Source of the DNA: the human T2T-CHM13v2.0 reference genome, Homo sapiens
Length of the DNA stretch: 64,000 nt
Strand: one strand, 5' to 3'
Assembly: GCF_009914755.1 (NCBI RefSeq)
Contig: NC_060926.1
Shown: in pieces, positions 1 through 35,147 of the stretch
Position numbering within the stretch: the stretch's first letter is position 1
Layout: every line of letters begins with the position of its first letter
Notes under the pieces: model-generated
Databases searched by the model: none
The model's input: the letters and a program-made list of their open reading frames with translations, nothing else
Told to the model about the DNA's origin: nothing
Translations under genes and position numbers: made by a program

Positions 1-2365
1 GCTAAGAACCATGATAAAACATTACAGGAACTGTTAACCAAAATAGCCAGGTGAGAGAGGAACACAAATGACCTGATGGAGGTGAAAAACACAACCTGAG
101 AACTTCACAATGCAACCGCAAGTATCAATAGCTGAATAGACCAAGTGGAGGAAAGAATTTCAGAGCTTGAAGACTATCTTGCTGAAATAAGACCGACAGA
201 CAAGGTCAGAGAAAAAAATAATGAAAATAAATGAACAAAACCTCCAAGAACTATGGGATTATGTAAAAAGACTGAAGTTACGACTGATTGGGGTACCAGA
301 AAGAGATGGAGAGAATGAAACCAAGTTGTAAAGCACACTTCAGGACATCATCCAGGAGAACTTCCCCAACCTAGCAAGACAGGCCAACATTCAAATTCAG
401 GAAATCCAGAGAATCCCAGTAAGATACTCCACGGGAAGATCAACCCCAATCACATAATCATCAGATTCTCAAAGGTCAAAATGAAGGAAAAAAAAAATGT
501 TAAGGCAGCCAGAGAGAAAGGACAGGTCACCTACAAAGAGAAGCTCATTAGACTAACAGCAGATCTCCCAGCAGAAACCCTACAAGCCAGAAGAAATTTG
601 GGGCCAATATTTAACATTCTTAAAGAAAATAATTTCCAACCCAGAATTTTATATCTAGCCAAGCAAATTTCATATCTAGTTTCATAACCAAAGAAGAAAT
701 AAAATCATTTTCAGACAAGCAAATGCTGAGGGAATTTTTCACCACCAGGCCCGCCTTGCAAGAGCTCCTGAATGAAGCACTAAATATGGAAAGGAAAAAA
801 CTGGTACCAGCCAGCCACTGCAAAAACACACTGAAATACAAAGACCAATGACACTGTAAAGAAATTGCATCAACTAGTATGCAAAATAACCAATCAGCAT
901 CATGATAACAGGATCAAATTCACACATAACAATATTAACCTTAAATAAAAATGAGCTAAATGCACCAAGTAAAAGACAGAGACTGGCAGATTGGATAGAG
1001 TCAAAGCTCATCAGTGTGCTGTATTCAAGAGACCCATCTCATGTGCAAAGATACACATAGGCTCAAAATGAAGGGATAAAAGAAAATTTACCAAGCAAAT
1101 GGAAAGCAGAAAAAAACAGGAGCTGCTCTCCTTATTTCTGACAAAACAGACTTTAAACCAACAAAGATCAAAAAAGACAAAGAAGGGTATTACATAATGA
1201 TAAAGAGATCAATTCAACAAGAAGAGTTAACTATCCTAAATATAGTTAACCCAATACAGGAGCACCCAGATTCATGAAGCAAGTTGTTAGAGACCTACAC
1301 AGAGACTTAGACTCCCACACAATAATAGTGGGAGATTTTAATACCCCACTGTCAATACTCGACAGATCATTGAGACAGAAAATTAACAAGGATATTCAGG
1401 ACTGGAAATCAGCTCTGGAACAAGTGGATGTGACAGAAAATTTTTGCATTCTATCCATCTGACAAAGTTCTAATATCCAGAATCCATAAGGAATTTAAGC
1501 AAATTTACAAGAAAAAAATGAACAGCCCCATTAAAAAGTGGGCAAAGGACATGAACAGACACTTCTCGAAAGAAGACATTTATGTGGCAAACAAACATAT
1601 GAAAAAAAGCTCAACATCACTGGCCATTAGAGAAATGCAGATCAAAACCACAATGAGATACCATCTTAGACCAGTCAGAATGACGATTACAAAAAGTCAA
1701 GAAACAACAGATGCTGGTGAGGCTGCGGAGAAACAGAAACACTTTTACACTGTTGGTGGGAATGTAAATTAGTTCAACCATTGTGGAAGACAGTATAGTG
1801 ACTCCTCAAAGATCTATAGCCAGAAATACCATCTGACCCAGCAATCCCTTTACTGGGTATATACCCAAAGGAATATAAATTATTCTACTATAAAGATACA
1901 TGCACGTGTATGTTTACTGCAGCACTATTCACAAAAGCAAAGACAGGGAATCAACACAAATGCCCATCAATGATAGAATGGATAAAGAAAATGTGTTACA
2001 TATGCACCATAGAATACTATGCAGCCATAAAAGGAATGAGATCATATCCTTTGCAGGGAGATGGATGGAGCTTGAAGCTGTTATCCTCAGCAAACACAGG
2101 AGCAGAAAACCAAACACTGCATGTTCTCACATAAAAATGGGAACTGAGCAATTAGAACATATGGACACAGGAAAGGGAACAACAAACACAGGCGTCCTTT
2201 CAGGGGCAGGGGGAGAGAGGAATATCAGGATGTGGGGCTTAATACCTAGCTGGTGGGTTGATAGGTGCAGCAAACCATCATGGCACATGATTAACCATGT
2301 AACAAATCTGCACATCCTGCACATGTATCCTGGAACCTAGAATAAAATAAAATTAAATAAAAAAC
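1..2365 (+). mobile_element. LINE-1, older primate subfamily (approx. L1PA8-13), 5' end outside the window, internally deleted in ORF2
   Basis: ORF1p-like peptide at 481-687 (AAREKGQVTYK..IRLTADL..ETLQARR). ORF2 start ATGATAACAGGATCAAATTCACAC near 902. Endonuclease peptide DLHRDLDSHTIIVGDFNTPLS at 1274-1462. ORF2 C-terminal peptides at 1518-2134. L1 3'UTR and A-rich tail at 2341-2364. Many stops and frameshifts. Confidence 0.95.
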
Positions 2366-3568: not shown

Positions 3569-4234
3569 AAATGTAATAAGATTAGAATTATTGCCAATAG
3601 CATACACAGAAATAGCAAATAGGTGAATTTTAAAACTAATTGCTAAATAATTTTTTAATCAAAAGAGAAAACTGAAAGTACAATTATACAGTTGCAAACA
3701 ATACCATGCGATGAAACTTATAATCAAAGTTGTGTTTAGAAAAACATTTGTAGCTTAAATGCTTCTATTAACCAAATAGAAATGAAAATATACCTACCAA
3801 AACTAAGAACTCAAGAACATAGAAAAAATAAACACGCCTAAGCACAGTAGGTTGAAGGAATTAATAGGGATTAAAGCAGACATCAATAGAATAGAAAACA
3901 AAAATACTATATGTGATAATTATTTTCTTACCAGAGGTGGCTTTTCTCCTCAATTAATTTTAAAAATAAGAAAATATGTGTAGAAAGTTTGAAGGAAAAA
4001 TGCTGAGTAGTCATAGATAAATAAGGTTTATAAAAATAATTATAATTGAATATTACATGGCACACAATGTTGAAAAACATGATCAGGATTAAACATATAA
4101 TTTTGAAAGACTTACATTTAACTAAAACTTGTTGAAGATGATATAATAAAACTAAATAGATCAATTTAAAAATTAGCAAGTTATCCCACTCATCTCTAAA
4201 GAGACTGGCTCAAAGTTTCAGAGGTCAGTTCTTT

Positions 4235-4354
4235 GTTTTATTCTATTTTTATTGAGCAATAATAATTGTATATATTTTTACGGGGTATAATGTGATGCTT
4301 CCATGCATGCATATATCGTGGAATGAGCAAATTAGGCTAATTAACATATCCATG
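4235..4354 (-). mobile_element. Short 5'-truncated L1MA 3' end with degenerate TSD
   Basis: taataattgtatatatttt..ggggtataatgtgatg..ggaatgagcaaattaggctaattaacatatcc is L1MA 3'-terminal sequence. Flanks tcagaggtcagttcttt (4218-4234) and tcataggtgagttattt (4355-4371) match at 14/17. Confidence 0.7.
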
Positions 4355-4805
4355 TCATAGGTGAGTTATTTCAAACATTTTAGTAACATAAGTTATATTT
4401 TATTTACAAATGTCTAGAGTATATACAAAGCAGGAAAGGTTATCAATGTATTCAATACATTTTTATAGGCATGATAATAAACCATAACTATAGGGGATGG
4501 GAAGGGAGGATCAATCCATATCACTTATAATACCGAGGCAAAAATTGTAGAAAAGGTTTGGCAAATCGGATCAGAGAAGTCAATTTAGAAGAGGTGGTAT
4601 CAAGAATGAACTGAAGAGTAGGATTTTCACCAGCGGAGCGAGGCATTTGAAACAAGGAAAAGTTAAGTGAGCTGCAGGGGCACAGCACAAAAGACCCACC
4701 TAGGTAAAATGACCATGCTTCCCAGTTTCCCTGGCCAGTGCTTGCTTATACTGCTTTCCAGTATAACTGTTAGTAGCATCCTTTTCCACTCATGAAGGTA
4801 TGCTG

Positions 4806-23463: not shown

Positions 23464-24893
23464 AGTTCTCAAACTTAAAGGTATGTAAGATTCATTCAAG
23501 TTGTTTGCTAAATGTAATAGGAATTCTAGTTAATATGATGCTTAATATCACCAGGCACTCTTTTAAGCACGTCACATATATCAACTGAATTTTTCCTCAC
23601 AACAGCTCTGAGTTAAGGACTATGATTTTCTCATTTCACAGGGAAGAAAGTGTAAGTACAAATAGGTTTTTTAATTGCTTAAGGATTAACATTTAGTAAA
23701 ATCTGGAGCTGGAATTCAAGCCAAGGCAGCCTGGTTGCAGAGTCTACCCACTACACTGGTCCCTAAGAAGAGTCCTTGTTCCCTCTTCTACAGATTTTTT
23801 TAAAATTAGCATCTGAGGGTAGATCCCTGGAATCCAAATTTTCTTTTTTTTTTTTTTTGTACTGGTTCCTTTATTCAAATTAAGATATTACAATACAAAA
23901 ACATTGTTCTAAATGTAGGCTTATAATGAAAATCATACTATTCCATACACTTGCATAAATGACTTAAACAATTGAGAGACAATATTTCCCAAATAGTATA
24001 TCATAGAGTTAATAACTGAAACACACCATGAAAATGCTCTGTGGTCAAACAGATTTGGGCAATGCTGGTTAAGTAAAGTTAAAGAGTTGGTTTTGCAATA
24101 TGACTTCTCAGAGCTATTAATATGTTAGTATATATTTGAATACTCAAGAGGGAGCTATAAGCAGTAAGCAAAATTTTTTTTAGAATATATTTGATGAAGA
24201 AATTATTTTTAGATGGAAATCTATAAGGCTGTTTTATATAAAAAAGGAAGGCATTAATCTTTCTCTTCTGAAATGCCAAACTTCAATGATGAGTCCTGCA
24301 AACTGGTTCCTTATGGCACGATGCTATCCAGGAATAGGATAGCATTGATGTAGGATTGGCTATGTGTTCGTATCTGAGTGTTAGCATGACATTTGCATGC
24401 TATGTCATGGACTGAGAATCTGGGTTAGGTTGTCCTGACAGCAAACGCAATTGTGATATTGTCAGTATACCACTCTCTCTATTTACTCATCTAAATGAAC
24501 CACTCTACAAGAAACCTTTGAAATTTAATAAATTCAACTCATATTGAACTCACAATTTAATTTTAATTCATATTTACGAGCTATTGAAAAAACATTCCAC
24601 TCACTTGAAAATTCAAAACAAAAATAAGAGTATTCTTTATTCCATAATTGCACCGACTGAAAATATTAAATAAAAACAAGACGAGAACTTGTCTCTAAAG
24701 AACTTTAAGGAGTCCATTTCTCAAAAAACTATGCCATACTATAGATTCTTCAATATGACCTACAAAGAGACTTAGACTCCCACACATTAATAATGGGAGA
24801 CTTTAACACCCCAAATTTTCAACATGCACTTCCCCAAACCCTCAGGTGGCTCTCATGCCAGGGTTCTCAGATCACACTTTGAAAAACATTGGC
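23464..24893. mobile_element. MER5-like hAT DNA transposon split by a MIR (~23520-23760) and by the retro-insert at 23844-24810
   Basis: Left part gttctcaaactt..; middle gagggtagatccctggaatccaaattttc resumes at 24821 as aacatgcacttcccc..caggtggctctcatgc..gatcacactttgaaaaacattgg, the typical MER5 terminus. Confidence 0.7.
23844..24810 (-). mobile_element. L1-mediated retro-insertion: non-L1 cargo with poly(A), plus a 5'-inverted 58-bp L1 ORF2 fragment (probable 3' transduction)
   Basis: TSD ccaaattttc at 23834-23843 and 24811-24820. T15 at 23844-23858. tttatt (AATAAA on -) at 23870-23875. L1 ORF2 sequence tgacctacaaagagacttagactcccacacattaataatgggagactttaacacccca at 24756-24813 on the opposite strand. 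Confidence 0.85.
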
Positions 24894-27090: not shown

Positions 27091-28490
27091 GACTCATATC
27101 TGGAGCTATCAACTAGAATGAGTAAATACATGCAAATGAGGTTGGAAAAAATGTCTGTGTGCCTATAATGCTCAGTTCTAAGGCAAAATTTTGATAACAT
27201 TTTCTAGTCCATGTTTATAGAAACTAAAAGCTGTAGTTTTCATTACAGCATTCATTATTGAAGACATTTTATTTGTTTCTAAGCCAACCCTTTCAGTGAT
27301 CTTAATGAGTCCAGCAACCAAGTAGGCAGAGCAGTAAAACCTCCTACTTTGGTGACGATACTTAACAGTCATTTCTAACCAGGAGCAGCAGCAATGGCAG
27401 ATGAATGTCATTCTCTGCTCTCTGGGGTGCAGCTCTTCAGAACAGGAACAAGTTACATAATCAGGAGGGATTTCCATTTGAAACAGTCTGGGGTGGTTAA
27501 TCTGGGAAATGCTATTCCTGTTTTCTGGGGATAAATGTTGACATCACAATGAAAAGCGAAAAAAATGTTCTGATAAAAGTGAACTCACTTATTTTGGTAC
27601 AAGCACGCTGGCTCATATATGTAAGTCCCCAGCATTGTCACAAAATAAGTTTATTGAGCTAGAGGTTAAGAAAAAGTGATTTCCAGAATGAACACTCACC
27701 TAGGATATGTCACGTTCATAAGGATGATGTAAATATATATAAAATATGGGAATGACAGTCTGTCTTCAGAAGATTGTAAGCTCTTTGTTGGTGAGGACTA
27801 TACATTATGTTTCTTAGCTTTCTGCCTAGTACCCAACACAGTCCTGGGCTTAGGTAGGTGAGAAAGATGTATGGCTGAAGCAATGGGATCGTGGTCAGAC
27901 TCGTCCATGAGGAAGAATTGTCATGACTCTGCCCTGCTTAAATCTTGGCTATTGCTGCAGAAAGAAGCTTTGACCCTTTGAGATTAGCTCTCAGTTCTTT
28001 AGCCAGATGTGAACCTCTCTGAACCACAGTGATCTTGCTTAAAATGTCTATCCCATTGGGTAGTGGTAACAATACATTTAGATACTTATGAAAAATTATT
28101 TATAAAATCAAAAGCTACATATGGTTATAAGTTGTTAATAAGTCCTCCCGTAATCTGATAATCAGGATTGAACAAAAATGATTTGATTGATAAAAATATA
28201 TCCACTTCCTAACCCCATCATGACTTATGCCTCTGACAACCTCCTCTCTGCTTATGGGTGAGGATTAATTATAGTCAAAGTTTCTCTACTCTCCTGTCCC
28301 TACCTTCCCTCGTTTACTCGATGTTCAAATAGACTACTTATAGCCATATAAGTTATGTATATTTTTAATCAAAACATCACAGAAAAGAAATCCTATTCAA
28401 AGCACTATAGGAGTGACCCAGTGTTAGAAATAAGTGTTCATCATCCAACTTCAGTCACTTCTAACTGTAGCAGCACTTAATGCCAATCAA

Positions 28491-28792
<302 letters not shown>

Positions 28793-29263
28793 GCCAATCA
28801 ATTTTTAACAGAGGAGCTAAAGAACGATGATAACATAGATGAAAAAAGTCTCTGGGTAGTGAATCATCACCTACAGAAGTACTTGTGAAATTTTCATATT
28901 CATGCTGATCACCTTGCTAAAAGGCAGATACTAAATGAGCAGAAATGGGGTTGATTCTGAGTTTCTGCACTTCCCAGGTGACATCAAACACTGCTGGTCT
29001 GTGATCTACACTTTGAGTCACCAGAACTTAGACTATGCTCACTGACTTTTTTTTTTTTTATTATAGCTTAAGGTCTAGGATACATGTTCATGATGTGCAG
29101 GTTTGTTACATATGTATACATGTGCCACGTTGGTGTGCTGCACCCATTAACTCGTCATTTACATTAGGTATATCTCATAATGCTATCCCTCCCCCCTCCC
29201 CCAACCCCAGGACAGGCCCCAGTGTGTGATGTTCCCCTTCTTGTGTCCAAGTGTTCTCATTGT

Positions 29264-33074
<3,811 letters not shown>

Positions 33075-33137
33075 TATGATGTTAGCTGGTTATTTTGCTC
33101 ATTAGTTGATGCAGTTTCTTCCTAGCATCGATGGTCT

Positions 33138-34155
33138 TTACAATTTGGCATGTTTTTGCAGTGGCTGGTACCAGTTGTTCCTTTCCATGTTTAGTGCTTC
33201 CTTCAGGAGCTCTTGTAAGGCAGGCCTGGTGGTGAAAAAATCTCTCATCATTTGCTTGTCTGTAAAGGATTTTATTTCTCCCTCACTTATGAGGCTTAGT
33301 TTGGCTGGATATGAAATTCTGGGTTGAAAATTGTTTTCTTTAAGAATGCCAAATATTAGCCACCACTCTCTTCTGGCTTGTAGAGTTTCTGCCGAGAGAT
33401 CTGCTGTTAGTCTGATGGGCTTCCCTTGTGGGTAACCCGACCTTCCTCTCTGGCTGCCCTTCACAATTTTTCCTTCATTTCAACTTTGGTGAATCTGACA
33501 ATTATGTACCTTGGAGTTGCACTTCTCAAGGAGTATCTTTGTGGCGTTCTCTGTATTTCCTGAATTTGAATGTTGGGCTGCCTTTCTAGGTTGGGGAAGT
33601 TCTCCTGGATAATATCCTGCAGAGTGTTTGCCAATTTGGTTCCATTCTCCCCGTCACTTTCAGGTACACCAATCAGACATAGATTTGGTCTTTTCACATA
33701 GACCCATATTTCCTGGAGGCTTTGTTCATTTCTTTTTACTCTTTTTTCTCTAAACTTCTCTTCTTGCTTCATTTCATTCATTCGATCTTCAATCACTGAT
33801 ACCCTTTTTTCCACTTGATCGAATTGGCTACTGAAGTTTGTGCATTTGTCACATAGTTCTGGTGCGATGGTTTTCAGCTCCATCAGGTCATTTAAGGTCA
33901 TTCTCTACACTGTTTGTTCTAGTCAGCCATTTGTCTAATCTTTTTTCAAGGTTTTTAGCTTCTTTGCAATGGGTTTGAACTTCCTCCTTTAGCTTGGAGA
34001 AGTTTGAACGTCTGAAGCCTTCTTCTCTCAACTTGTCAAAGTCATTCTCCGTCTAGCTTTGTTCCATTGCTGGCGAGGAGCTGCATTCCTTTGGAGGGGG
34101 AGAGGCACTCTGATTTTTAGAATTTTCAGTTTTTCTGCTCTGTTTTTTTCTCCAT
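33138..34155 (-). pseudogene. L1 ORF1 (RNA-binding chaperone), disrupted
   Basis: Fragments KRNEQSLQEIWVYVKRPNL..QENFPNL (33901-33461) and IRLTADLSAETLQARREW..LQKHAKL (33464-33138) are in different frames. ATG at 34155. Confidence 0.93.
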
Positions 34156-35147
34156 CTTTGTGGTTTTATCTACCTTTGGTCTTTGATGATGGTGATGTAC
34201 CAGTGGGGTTTTGGTGTGGATGTCCTTTCTGTTTGTTAGTTTTCCTTCTAAAAGTCAGGACCCTCAGCTGCAGGTCTCTTGGAGTTTGCTGGAGGTCCAC
34301 TCCAGACCCTGTTTGCTTGGGTATCAGCAGCAGAGGCTGCAGAACAGCGAGTATTGCTGAACAGCAAATGTTGCTGCCTGATTCTTCCTTTGGAAGCTTT
34401 GTCTCAGAGGGGTACCCGGATGTGTAAGGTGTCAGTCTGCCCCTGCTGGGGGGTGCCTCCCAGTTAGGCTACTCGGGGGTCAGGGACCCACTTGAGGAGG
34501 CAGTCTGTCCGTTCTCAGATCTCAAACTCCGTGCTGGGAGAACCAGTACTCTCTTCAAAGGTGTCAGCCAGGGAAATTTAAGTCTGCAGAGGTTTCTGCT
34601 GCCTTTTGTTCAGCTATGCCCCGCCCCCAGAGGTGAAGTCTACAGAGGCAGGCAGGCCTCCTTGAGCTGCGGTGGGCTCCACCCAGTTTGAGCTTCCTGT
34701 CTGCTTTGTTTACCTACTCAAGCCTCAGCAATGGTGGGCGCCCCTCCCCCAGCCTTGCTGCCACCTTGCAGTTCTATCTCAGACTGCTGTGCTAGCAATG
34801 AGTGAGGCTCCATGGGCATGGGACACTCCCAGCCAGGTGCAGGGTATAATCTGCTGGTGTGCCGTTTGCTAAGACCGTTGGAAAAGCTCAGTATTAGGGT
34901 GGGAGTGACCCAATTTTCTAGGTGCCGTCTGTCACTGCTTTCCTTGGCTACAAAAGGGAATTCCCTGACCCCATGTGCTTCCTCACCCTGCTTCAGCTCA
35001 CATTTGCTGGGCTGCACCCACTGTCTGACAAGCCCCAGTGAGATAAACCCGGTACCTCAGTTGGAAATGCAGAAATCACCCGTCTTCTGCGTCGCTCACA
35101 CTGGGAGCTGTAGACTGGAGCTGTTCCTATTCATCCATCTTGGACTC
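34156..35147 (-). promoter_or_regulatory. L1 5'UTR with internal sense promoter and antisense promoter region, including ORF0 remnant
   Basis: GC-rich L1 5'UTR; YY1-type motif ccatcttgg at the 5' end; antisense ORF0 ATG at 34731. Confidence 0.8.

What the first reader, a model, noticed from the sequence alone, without database searches (positions are those of the whole stretch)
24756..24820. 58-bp inverted young-L1 ORF2 fragment at the insert's 5' junction (twin priming with a multi-kb gap)
Seen: tgacctacaaagagacttagactcccacacattaataatgggagactttaacacccca lies opposite in orientation to the insert's poly(A) and overlaps the TSD by 3 bp (cca). It differs from the same region in both local L1 copies (~1290-1350 and ~32630-32690), so it was not copied from them. 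From memory, the cacacattaataatggg variant matches L1HS/L1PA2. Known: twin priming yields TSD, antisense piece, sense piece, poly(A), with microhomology at the TSD end. Unusual: the inverted piece comes from the ORF2 endonuclease region, and the remaining >3 kb of L1 including its 3'UTR is absent. That implies either a very large deletion at the inversion point or a template switch between two different RNAs.
Basis: partly seen in the sequence, partly recalled or inferred. Interest (0 to 1): 0.7.

Follow-up and report, generated by a model that had tools for sequence, protein, structure and literature searches.

The report
Jumping-gene insert from a missing parent
A 1-kb insert on human chromosome 2 carries 897 bases copied from chromosome 4 plus a flipped 58-base scrap of a LINE-1 jumping gene; it was likely copied from both ends of one long RNA of a LINE-1 that is missing from this genome at that chromosome 4 site, a known process here with an unusually long skipped stretch.

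Summary
On the minus strand the insert reads: 10-bp TSD, 58-bp inverted L1 ORF2 piece (L1 position about 2374-2431), 897-bp unique cargo, A15, TSD. A sibling insertion at chr2:81.35 Mb, however, carries an L1 3' end, a 17-nt lineage tag and the same cargo, showing that an L1 once lay 86 bp upstream of the cargo. Full-length L1PA2-type members of that tag lineage hold the 58-mer exactly (2 of 3). Best reading: twin priming on one ~7-kb read-through RNA, skipping ~3.74 kb (0.72). The 58-mer has 1,620 exact genomic copies, so a second L1 RNA cannot be excluded. Such gaps are rare but known: 7 of 287 published rows reach 2 kb, 1 of 287 exceeds 3 kb. A by-product: three source sites of this lineage (chr16, chr4, chr3) are all empty here. 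New member of a known kind; no function indicated.

The parts
23834..23843 (.). Target-site duplication, copy at the insert's 3' (poly(A)) end, 10 bp
   Evidence: word occurs only here and at 24811 in the window
23844..23858 (-). Poly(A) tail, 15 nt (first two A may be templated by the chr4 source)
   Evidence: absent from the chr4 source
23859..24755 (-). Cargo: 897 bp of unique DNA transduced from chr4:95,265,451 onward, sense to the poly(A)
   Evidence: 98% to chr4:95.265 Mb, 99% to sibling chr2:81.353 Mb; alignment
23870..23875 (-). AATAAA signal 11 nt upstream of the tail; the sibling ends about 4 nt further on behind the same signal
24756..24813 (+). Inverted L1 piece, 58 bp, L1 positions 2374-2431 (ORF2 endonuclease region) counted on the chr7 lineage member; 1-bp ambiguity with the cargo, 3-bp overlap with the TSD
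24811..24820 (.). Target-site duplication, copy at the insert's 5' end; ends in a TTTC/A endonuclease-type site
   Evidence: TTTC/A listed as an EN cut site in PMC12016303 Table 1
24819..24825 (+). 7-bp match to the L1 sequence just 3' of the priming point (possible extra primer pairing; post hoc, weak)

Best explanation
The insert is an L1-made copy (TSD, tail, EN site) of chr4 DNA joined to a flipped 58-bp L1 piece, likely produced by twin priming on a single read-through RNA of a full-length L1PA2-type element that likely stood at chr4:95,265,365 and is absent from this genome. Inferred steps: transcription ran through the L1 and 0.98 kb of flank to an AATAAA; the T-rich nick primed on the tail and copied 897 nt, stopping before it reached any L1 sequence; the second nick end paired by 3 nt (perhaps 3+7) at L1 position ~2429 and copied 55-58 nt; the two cDNAs were joined over 1 nt of microhomology, dropping ~3.74 kb. 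No function is indicated.
For: Shown: order TSD / antisense piece / sense piece / poly(A) / TSD, with the L1-3' end of the inverted piece at the TSD, the polarity twin priming predicts. Sibling at chr2:81.35 Mb: inverted L1 4573-5928, sense L1 5944-6049, tag, then 86 bp of chr4 flank and the same cargo, inside a TSD, so L1 and cargo were on one RNA. Window and sibling share the allele at all 6 positions where chr4 differs, and the window lacks both sibling-private changes. 58-mer exact in 2 of 3 full-length tag-lineage members, 1 mismatch in the third. 3-bp 5' and 1-bp inner microhomology fit published ranges (PMC5673974 passages). Kilobase gaps occur: 17 of 287 rows of at least 1 kb, 7 of 287 of at least 2 kb (5 distinct), 1 of 287 above 3 kb (PMC12016303 Table S12, counted by eye).
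Against: The source L1 itself was not seen; its 5' half is inferred from relatives. The 58-mer is shared by 1,620 loci, so it cannot be assigned to this source. A 3.7-kb gap is far from typical (median internal deletion 14.5 bp; 132 of 287 within 20 bp). The priming site is not specially complementary: rank 520 of 1,490 anchored sites with the 10-nt TSD as primer, 22, 42 and 200 with 15, 16 and 20 nt, and better sites lie nearer the 3' end. Two ends extended on different RNAs have precedent.
Confidence: 0.72

Rival explanations
1. Two templates: the tail end copied the chr4 read-through RNA, the second nick end primed on a different young L1 RNA.
For: 58-mer is common to 1,620 loci; the gap then needs no explanation; a DNA end extended on a different mRNA is described in an L1 cell model (bioRxiv 2024.12.14.628481 passage) and antisense RNA/L1 chimeras are attributed to this route (PMC13174262 passages).
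Against: The source RNA itself carried L1 (sibling) and lineage members hold the exact 58-mer; kilobase gaps already occur among L1-only inversions, although those rows could hide two-RNA events too.
Confidence: 0.12
2. Ordinary twin priming with a small gap, followed by a later deletion of 3.7 kb or more across the inner junction.
For: Geometry allows it: the TSD-side end is fixed, and one deletion would shorten both arms; the 1-bp junction microhomology does not discriminate.
Against: Needs a second rare event in a short time (cargo has 2 private substitutions in 897 bp); no longer allele is known to me; large gaps arise de novo in somatic insertions.
Confidence: 0.08
3. The RNA was spliced from ORF2 into the chr4 flank, so the true gap is only about 200 nt.
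For: An acceptor-like AG with 83% pyrimidines upstream lies 37 nt before the cargo start; an 11-nt word is shared between L1 position 2608 and the flank 21 nt before the cargo.
Against: No donor-like site better than 6 of 9 consensus matches in L1 2432-3300 (13 GT sites); a second 11-nt shared word at L1 929 shows such words arise by chance; such an RNA would lack the RT coding region and need ORF2p in trans; no spliced copy found among the 4 cargo hits; the sibling is unspliced.
Confidence: 0.05
4. An orphan transduction whose 5' end was patched with 58 bp copied from L1 DNA by a repair polymerase.
For: Templated insertions under 250 bp are described; microhomology at both ends.
Against: Those templates lie within 15 bp of the site; the local L1 copies differ by 5-6 of 58; orientation and source identity fit twin priming without extra assumptions.
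Confidence: 0.03

Closest known systems
L1 5' inversion by twin priming with internal deletion (Ostertag and Kazazian 2001, recalled, not held; described in bioRxiv 2024.08.27.596794 and PMC12016303)
   Same: TSD, antisense piece, sense piece, poly(A); microhomology at TSD end and inner junction; internal deletion (66% of inversions).
   Different: Gap ~3.74 kb against a median of 14.5 bp; only 1 of 287 listed rows is larger (4,201). The sense arm contains no L1 at all; that table covers only inversions inside L1 sequence.
L1 3' transduction with inversion (e.g. TTC28 source, PMC5673974; PMC13009371)
   Same: Unique downstream DNA ended at a flank AATAAA; inversions are frequent (16 of 35).
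   Different: Germline, L1PA2-type, old; source absent from the assembly.
Transductions whose source locus lacks a donor L1 (TIGER class 1, PMC4862182 section 14); multi-step transduction families (Szak 2003, recalled, not held)
   Same: Empty source site explained by the L1 segregating apart from its offspring.
   Different: Here three empty source sites of one tagged lineage are traced in one genome; I found no paper naming these loci (searches; partial supplement searches).

Membership tests
L1 TPRT insertion | Target-site duplication of about 5-25 bp | tested here: met
   10 bp, only two copies in window
L1 TPRT insertion | Non-templated poly(A) tail | tested here: met
   A15, absent at chr4 source
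L1 TPRT insertion | EN-type cut site | tested here: met
   TTTC/A
L1 TPRT insertion | Empty pre-insertion allele in outgroup or other haplotypes | not testable with these tools
   No primate or other human genomes held; flank search in fetched loci uninformative
L1 3' transduction | Cargo maps to one unique locus and ends near a flank poly(A) signal | tested here: met
L1 3' transduction | Full-length L1 immediately upstream of the cargo at the source | tested here: inconclusive
   Absent in this genome; sibling shows L1 3' end and tag joined to the flank 86 bp upstream; full length inferred only
Twin-priming inversion | 5' piece antisense, its RNA-3' end at the TSD | tested here: met
Twin-priming inversion | Microhomology at TSD end and inversion junction | tested here: met
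   3 bp and 1 bp; 1 bp is no more than chance
Twin-priming inversion | Both pieces copied from the same RNA molecule | tested here: inconclusive
   Compatible but 58-mer has 1,620 copies
L1PA2-type lineage | GAG, not ACA/ACG, at the 3'UTR diagnostic site (diagnostic recalled) | tested here: met
   GAG in chr6, chr7, chr13 members and sibling; ACA in the unrelated chr4 element
L1PA2-type lineage | Best alignment to the Dfam L1PA2 consensus | not testable with these tools
   No repeat library available
Spliced retrotransposed L1 (SpIRE) | Exact donor-acceptor junction in the insert | tested here: not met
   Junction is an inversion; cargo starts 37 nt past the nearest acceptor-like AG

The most novel reading that the evidence does not exclude
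This insert is a two-ended fossil of the 7-kb RNA of an extinct L1, part of a hominin-era lineage in which at least three successive source elements (chr16:72.687 Mb, chr4:95.265 Mb, chr3:102.813 Mb) vanished from all human haplotypes while their offspring persisted: a traceable pedigree of active L1s lost from the species.
Probability: 0.4. Interest if true: 0.5.

Novelty: new member of a known kind. Interest (0 to 1): 0.3.

Why it matters
As a single event it adds one germline example at the far tail of twin-priming gaps, showing the second primer can land kilobases from where the first cDNA stopped. It is also a caution: an empty source site does not show that a transduction is orphan or chimeric. 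The tagged lineage with three empty source sites offers a concrete test, in pangenomes and ape assemblies, of whether active full-length L1s are lost more often than their offspring.

Tried and rejected
Local L1 copies as template: 5-6 mismatches in 58. Fragment pre-existing at source: no; the old L1 just upstream of the chr4 cargo is 63.5% identical to the young element and gives no match within 20 mismatches. Full-length L1 at chr4:95,304,647 as source: it is 39 kb downstream, ACA-type, lacks the tag and has its own TSD. Sibling as parent: it has no L1 5' of position 4573 and two private changes the window lacks. Source with the gap already deleted: the sibling keeps L1 4573-6049 from it. 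Primer complementarity as cause of the distant site: top 1.5% only at one of four primer lengths, chosen after seeing the match. Source of the chr13 member's second 13-bp tag: one search found only itself. Polymorphism look-up: 12 locus prefixes plus 4 number prefixes in the 1,019-genome supplement found none of these loci, but the file is cut (18,827 rows of Table 18; Tables 19-20 not held) and the ACA-type chr4 element was not found either, so this says nothing. A recalled hg38 coordinate as search term gave only unrelated papers. Szak 2003, Ostertag 2001 and the T2T repeat paper were not held; the Halabian supplement was unreadable.

Full report
Observation. The insert lies on the minus strand between two copies of a 10-bp word, at 23834-23843 and 24811-24820, the only two in the window. 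From its 5' end: TSD, 58 bp antisense L1 (24813-24756), 897 bp unique DNA (24755-23859), A15 (23858-23844), TSD. The target ends in TTTC/A, an EN cut site in PMC12016303 Table 1 (passage). The 58-mer overlaps the TSD by 3 bp and the cargo by 1 bp. It has 1,620 exact genomic matches against 0 for the reversed control and differs from the window's two L1 copies at 6 and 5 of 58 sites.

Source of the cargo. A genome search (894 of the 897 bp) gave 4 hits: itself, chr2:81,353,147 (99%), chr4:95,265,451 (98%) and an 88-bp weak hit (77%, not followed up). The chr4 copy has no tail and continues as ordinary DNA, so it is the origin. Upstream of it lies only an old L1 (63.5% to a young element); in 170 kb around it the one full-length young L1 is 39 kb downstream, ACA-type, with its own TSD.

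The sibling changes that. The chr2:81.35 Mb copy reads: TSD, inverted L1 5928-4573, sense L1 5944-6049, an AAT-rich tract, a 17-nt tag, a short A-rich linker, 86 bp of chr4 flank, the same cargo, tail, TSD. So an L1 once sat at about chr4:95,265,365 and read through to the same AATAAA. The sibling's own gap is 15 nt, a textbook inversion. Over the cargo, window and sibling share the allele at all 6 sites where chr4 differs; the sibling has 2 private substitutions, the window 2 plus three small deletions. Their tails start about 4 nt apart. Independent copies of one source haplotype is the simplest reading (inference).

The lineage. The tag occurs 6 times exactly and once with 1 mismatch, control 0. 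The mismatch hit, chr16:72,686,692, is the origin: an Alu tail with no L1 in the 10 kb fetched. Three carriers are full length (chr6, chr7, chr13; about 98% to each other) and have GAG at the 3'UTR diagnostic site (GAG = L1PA2-type is recalled). The 58-mer is exact in chr6 and chr7, 1 mismatch in chr13, at L1 positions 2374-2431. The chr3:106.80 Mb carrier has a second 24-nt tag that maps to chr3:102,812,978, a TTTT/AAAA site with no L1 in the 400 bp read upstream. Thus 3 of 3 source sites I could locate are empty here; the chr13 second tag found no source and the chr4:139.5 Mb second tag is Alu-like and was not searched. Non-CpG private change is 0.42-0.57% for the full-length members and 0.22% (95% interval 0.06-0.57%) for the two cargo copies together; against about 0.6% per lineage since the chimpanzee split (recalled), this suggests a date near or after that split, with wide error. 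Empty donor sites are known (PMC4862182 section 14).

Mechanism. On the inferred RNA the skipped stretch is 3,621-3,630 + 114 = about 3.74 kb. The polarity is that of twin priming: the RNA-3' end of the inverted piece abuts the TSD. Shown: structure, source, sibling, lineage match. Inferred: full-length source, one RNA molecule, order of priming, joining. BLAST extends the L1 match 12 nt past the 58-mer with a 7-bp block; folding primer against 1,490 anchored RNA sites ranks the real site 520 (10 nt), 22 (15 nt), 42 (16 nt) and 200 (20 nt), using RNA parameters for a DNA-RNA pair. That is suggestive at best and does not explain the distant site.

How unusual. bioRxiv 2024.08.27.596794 (passages): 66% of 1,703 inversions have an internal deletion, median 14.5 bp. 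PMC12016303 (section 8 and all of Table S12): 132 of 287 within 20 bp; by my count by eye 17 of 287 rows have gaps of 1 kb or more (10 of 106 germline, 7 of 181 somatic), 7 of 2 kb or more (two germline pairs are duplicates, so 5 distinct), 1 above 3 kb (4,201, somatic; that row and the 2,780 row carry inconsistent overlap flags). One germline row has a 51-bp inverted piece and a 1,385 gap. The table covers only inversions inside L1. So this event is in roughly the top 1% but of a known kind. Inverted transductions are common (PMC5673974 and PMC13009371 passages).

Rivals. A second L1 RNA as template cannot be excluded since the 58-mer is so common; precedent exists (passages of bioRxiv 2024.12.14.628481, PMC13174262, PMC2837659): 0.12. 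A later deletion across the junction would give the same picture: 0.08. Splicing into an acceptor-like AG 37 nt before the cargo lacks a good donor (best 6 of 9 among 13 GT sites): 0.05. DNA-templated patch: 0.03.

Literature seen. Passages only: PMC13192797, PMC12350158, PMC2912911, PMC5860796, PMC9311842; PMC6191304 supplement list only. I found no paper naming these loci in searches; Szak 2003, the T2T repeat paper, bioRxiv supplements and the transduction tables of PMC12350158 and PMC9311842 could not be seen and may list this family.

Verdict. Real; a rare-tail member of twin-primed 3' transductions from a missing L1PA2-type source. No gene is touched (nearest annotated lncRNA ends 8.6 kb away, per the hub's table). 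Interest 0.3, most of it from the empty-source lineage.

Noticed in passing
G000 chr16:72,686,692 (L015); chr4:95,265,365 (L003); chr3:102,812,978 (L037): Three source sites of one tagged L1PA2-type lineage, all without the L1 in this genome; at least 7 offspring present including the window insert.
   Followed up: partly
L016 chr6:99.59 Mb, L017 chr7:135.21 Mb, L018 chr13:35.23 Mb: Full-length lineage members, ORFs broken; the chr7 copy keeps a 1,152-codon open frame in ORF2. The chr13 copy has a second 13-bp tag of unknown source.
   Followed up: partly
L011 chr4:139,535,111: Short lineage member (93 bp of L1) with a second tag resembling the middle of an Alu: another intermediate source.
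   Followed up: no
G000 chr4:95,215,892-95,216,893: Another young L1 with an inverted piece (4132-4478) and sense part from 5202: a gap of about 720 nt, plus a further internal gap.
   Followed up: no
G000 chr4:95,304,647-95,310,681: Full-length ACA-type (Ta) L1 with a 3' extension of about 190 bp before a second A tract and a 17-bp TSD, i.e. itself a likely transduction.
   Followed up: partly
window 28473-28807: Young Alu with a TSD of about 14 bp, resembling AluYa5 (recalled diagnostic), overlapping the RefSeq silencer 28637-28813.
   Followed up: no
window 23800-23833 and 24821-24890: Flanks look like two halves of an old MER5-type DNA transposon split by the insert (recalled resemblance; BLAST against fetched loci did not confirm).
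   Followed up: partly
window 12-2363 (+) and 29048-35143 (-): Older L1 copies, about 80% and 92% identical to the young element.
   Followed up: partly
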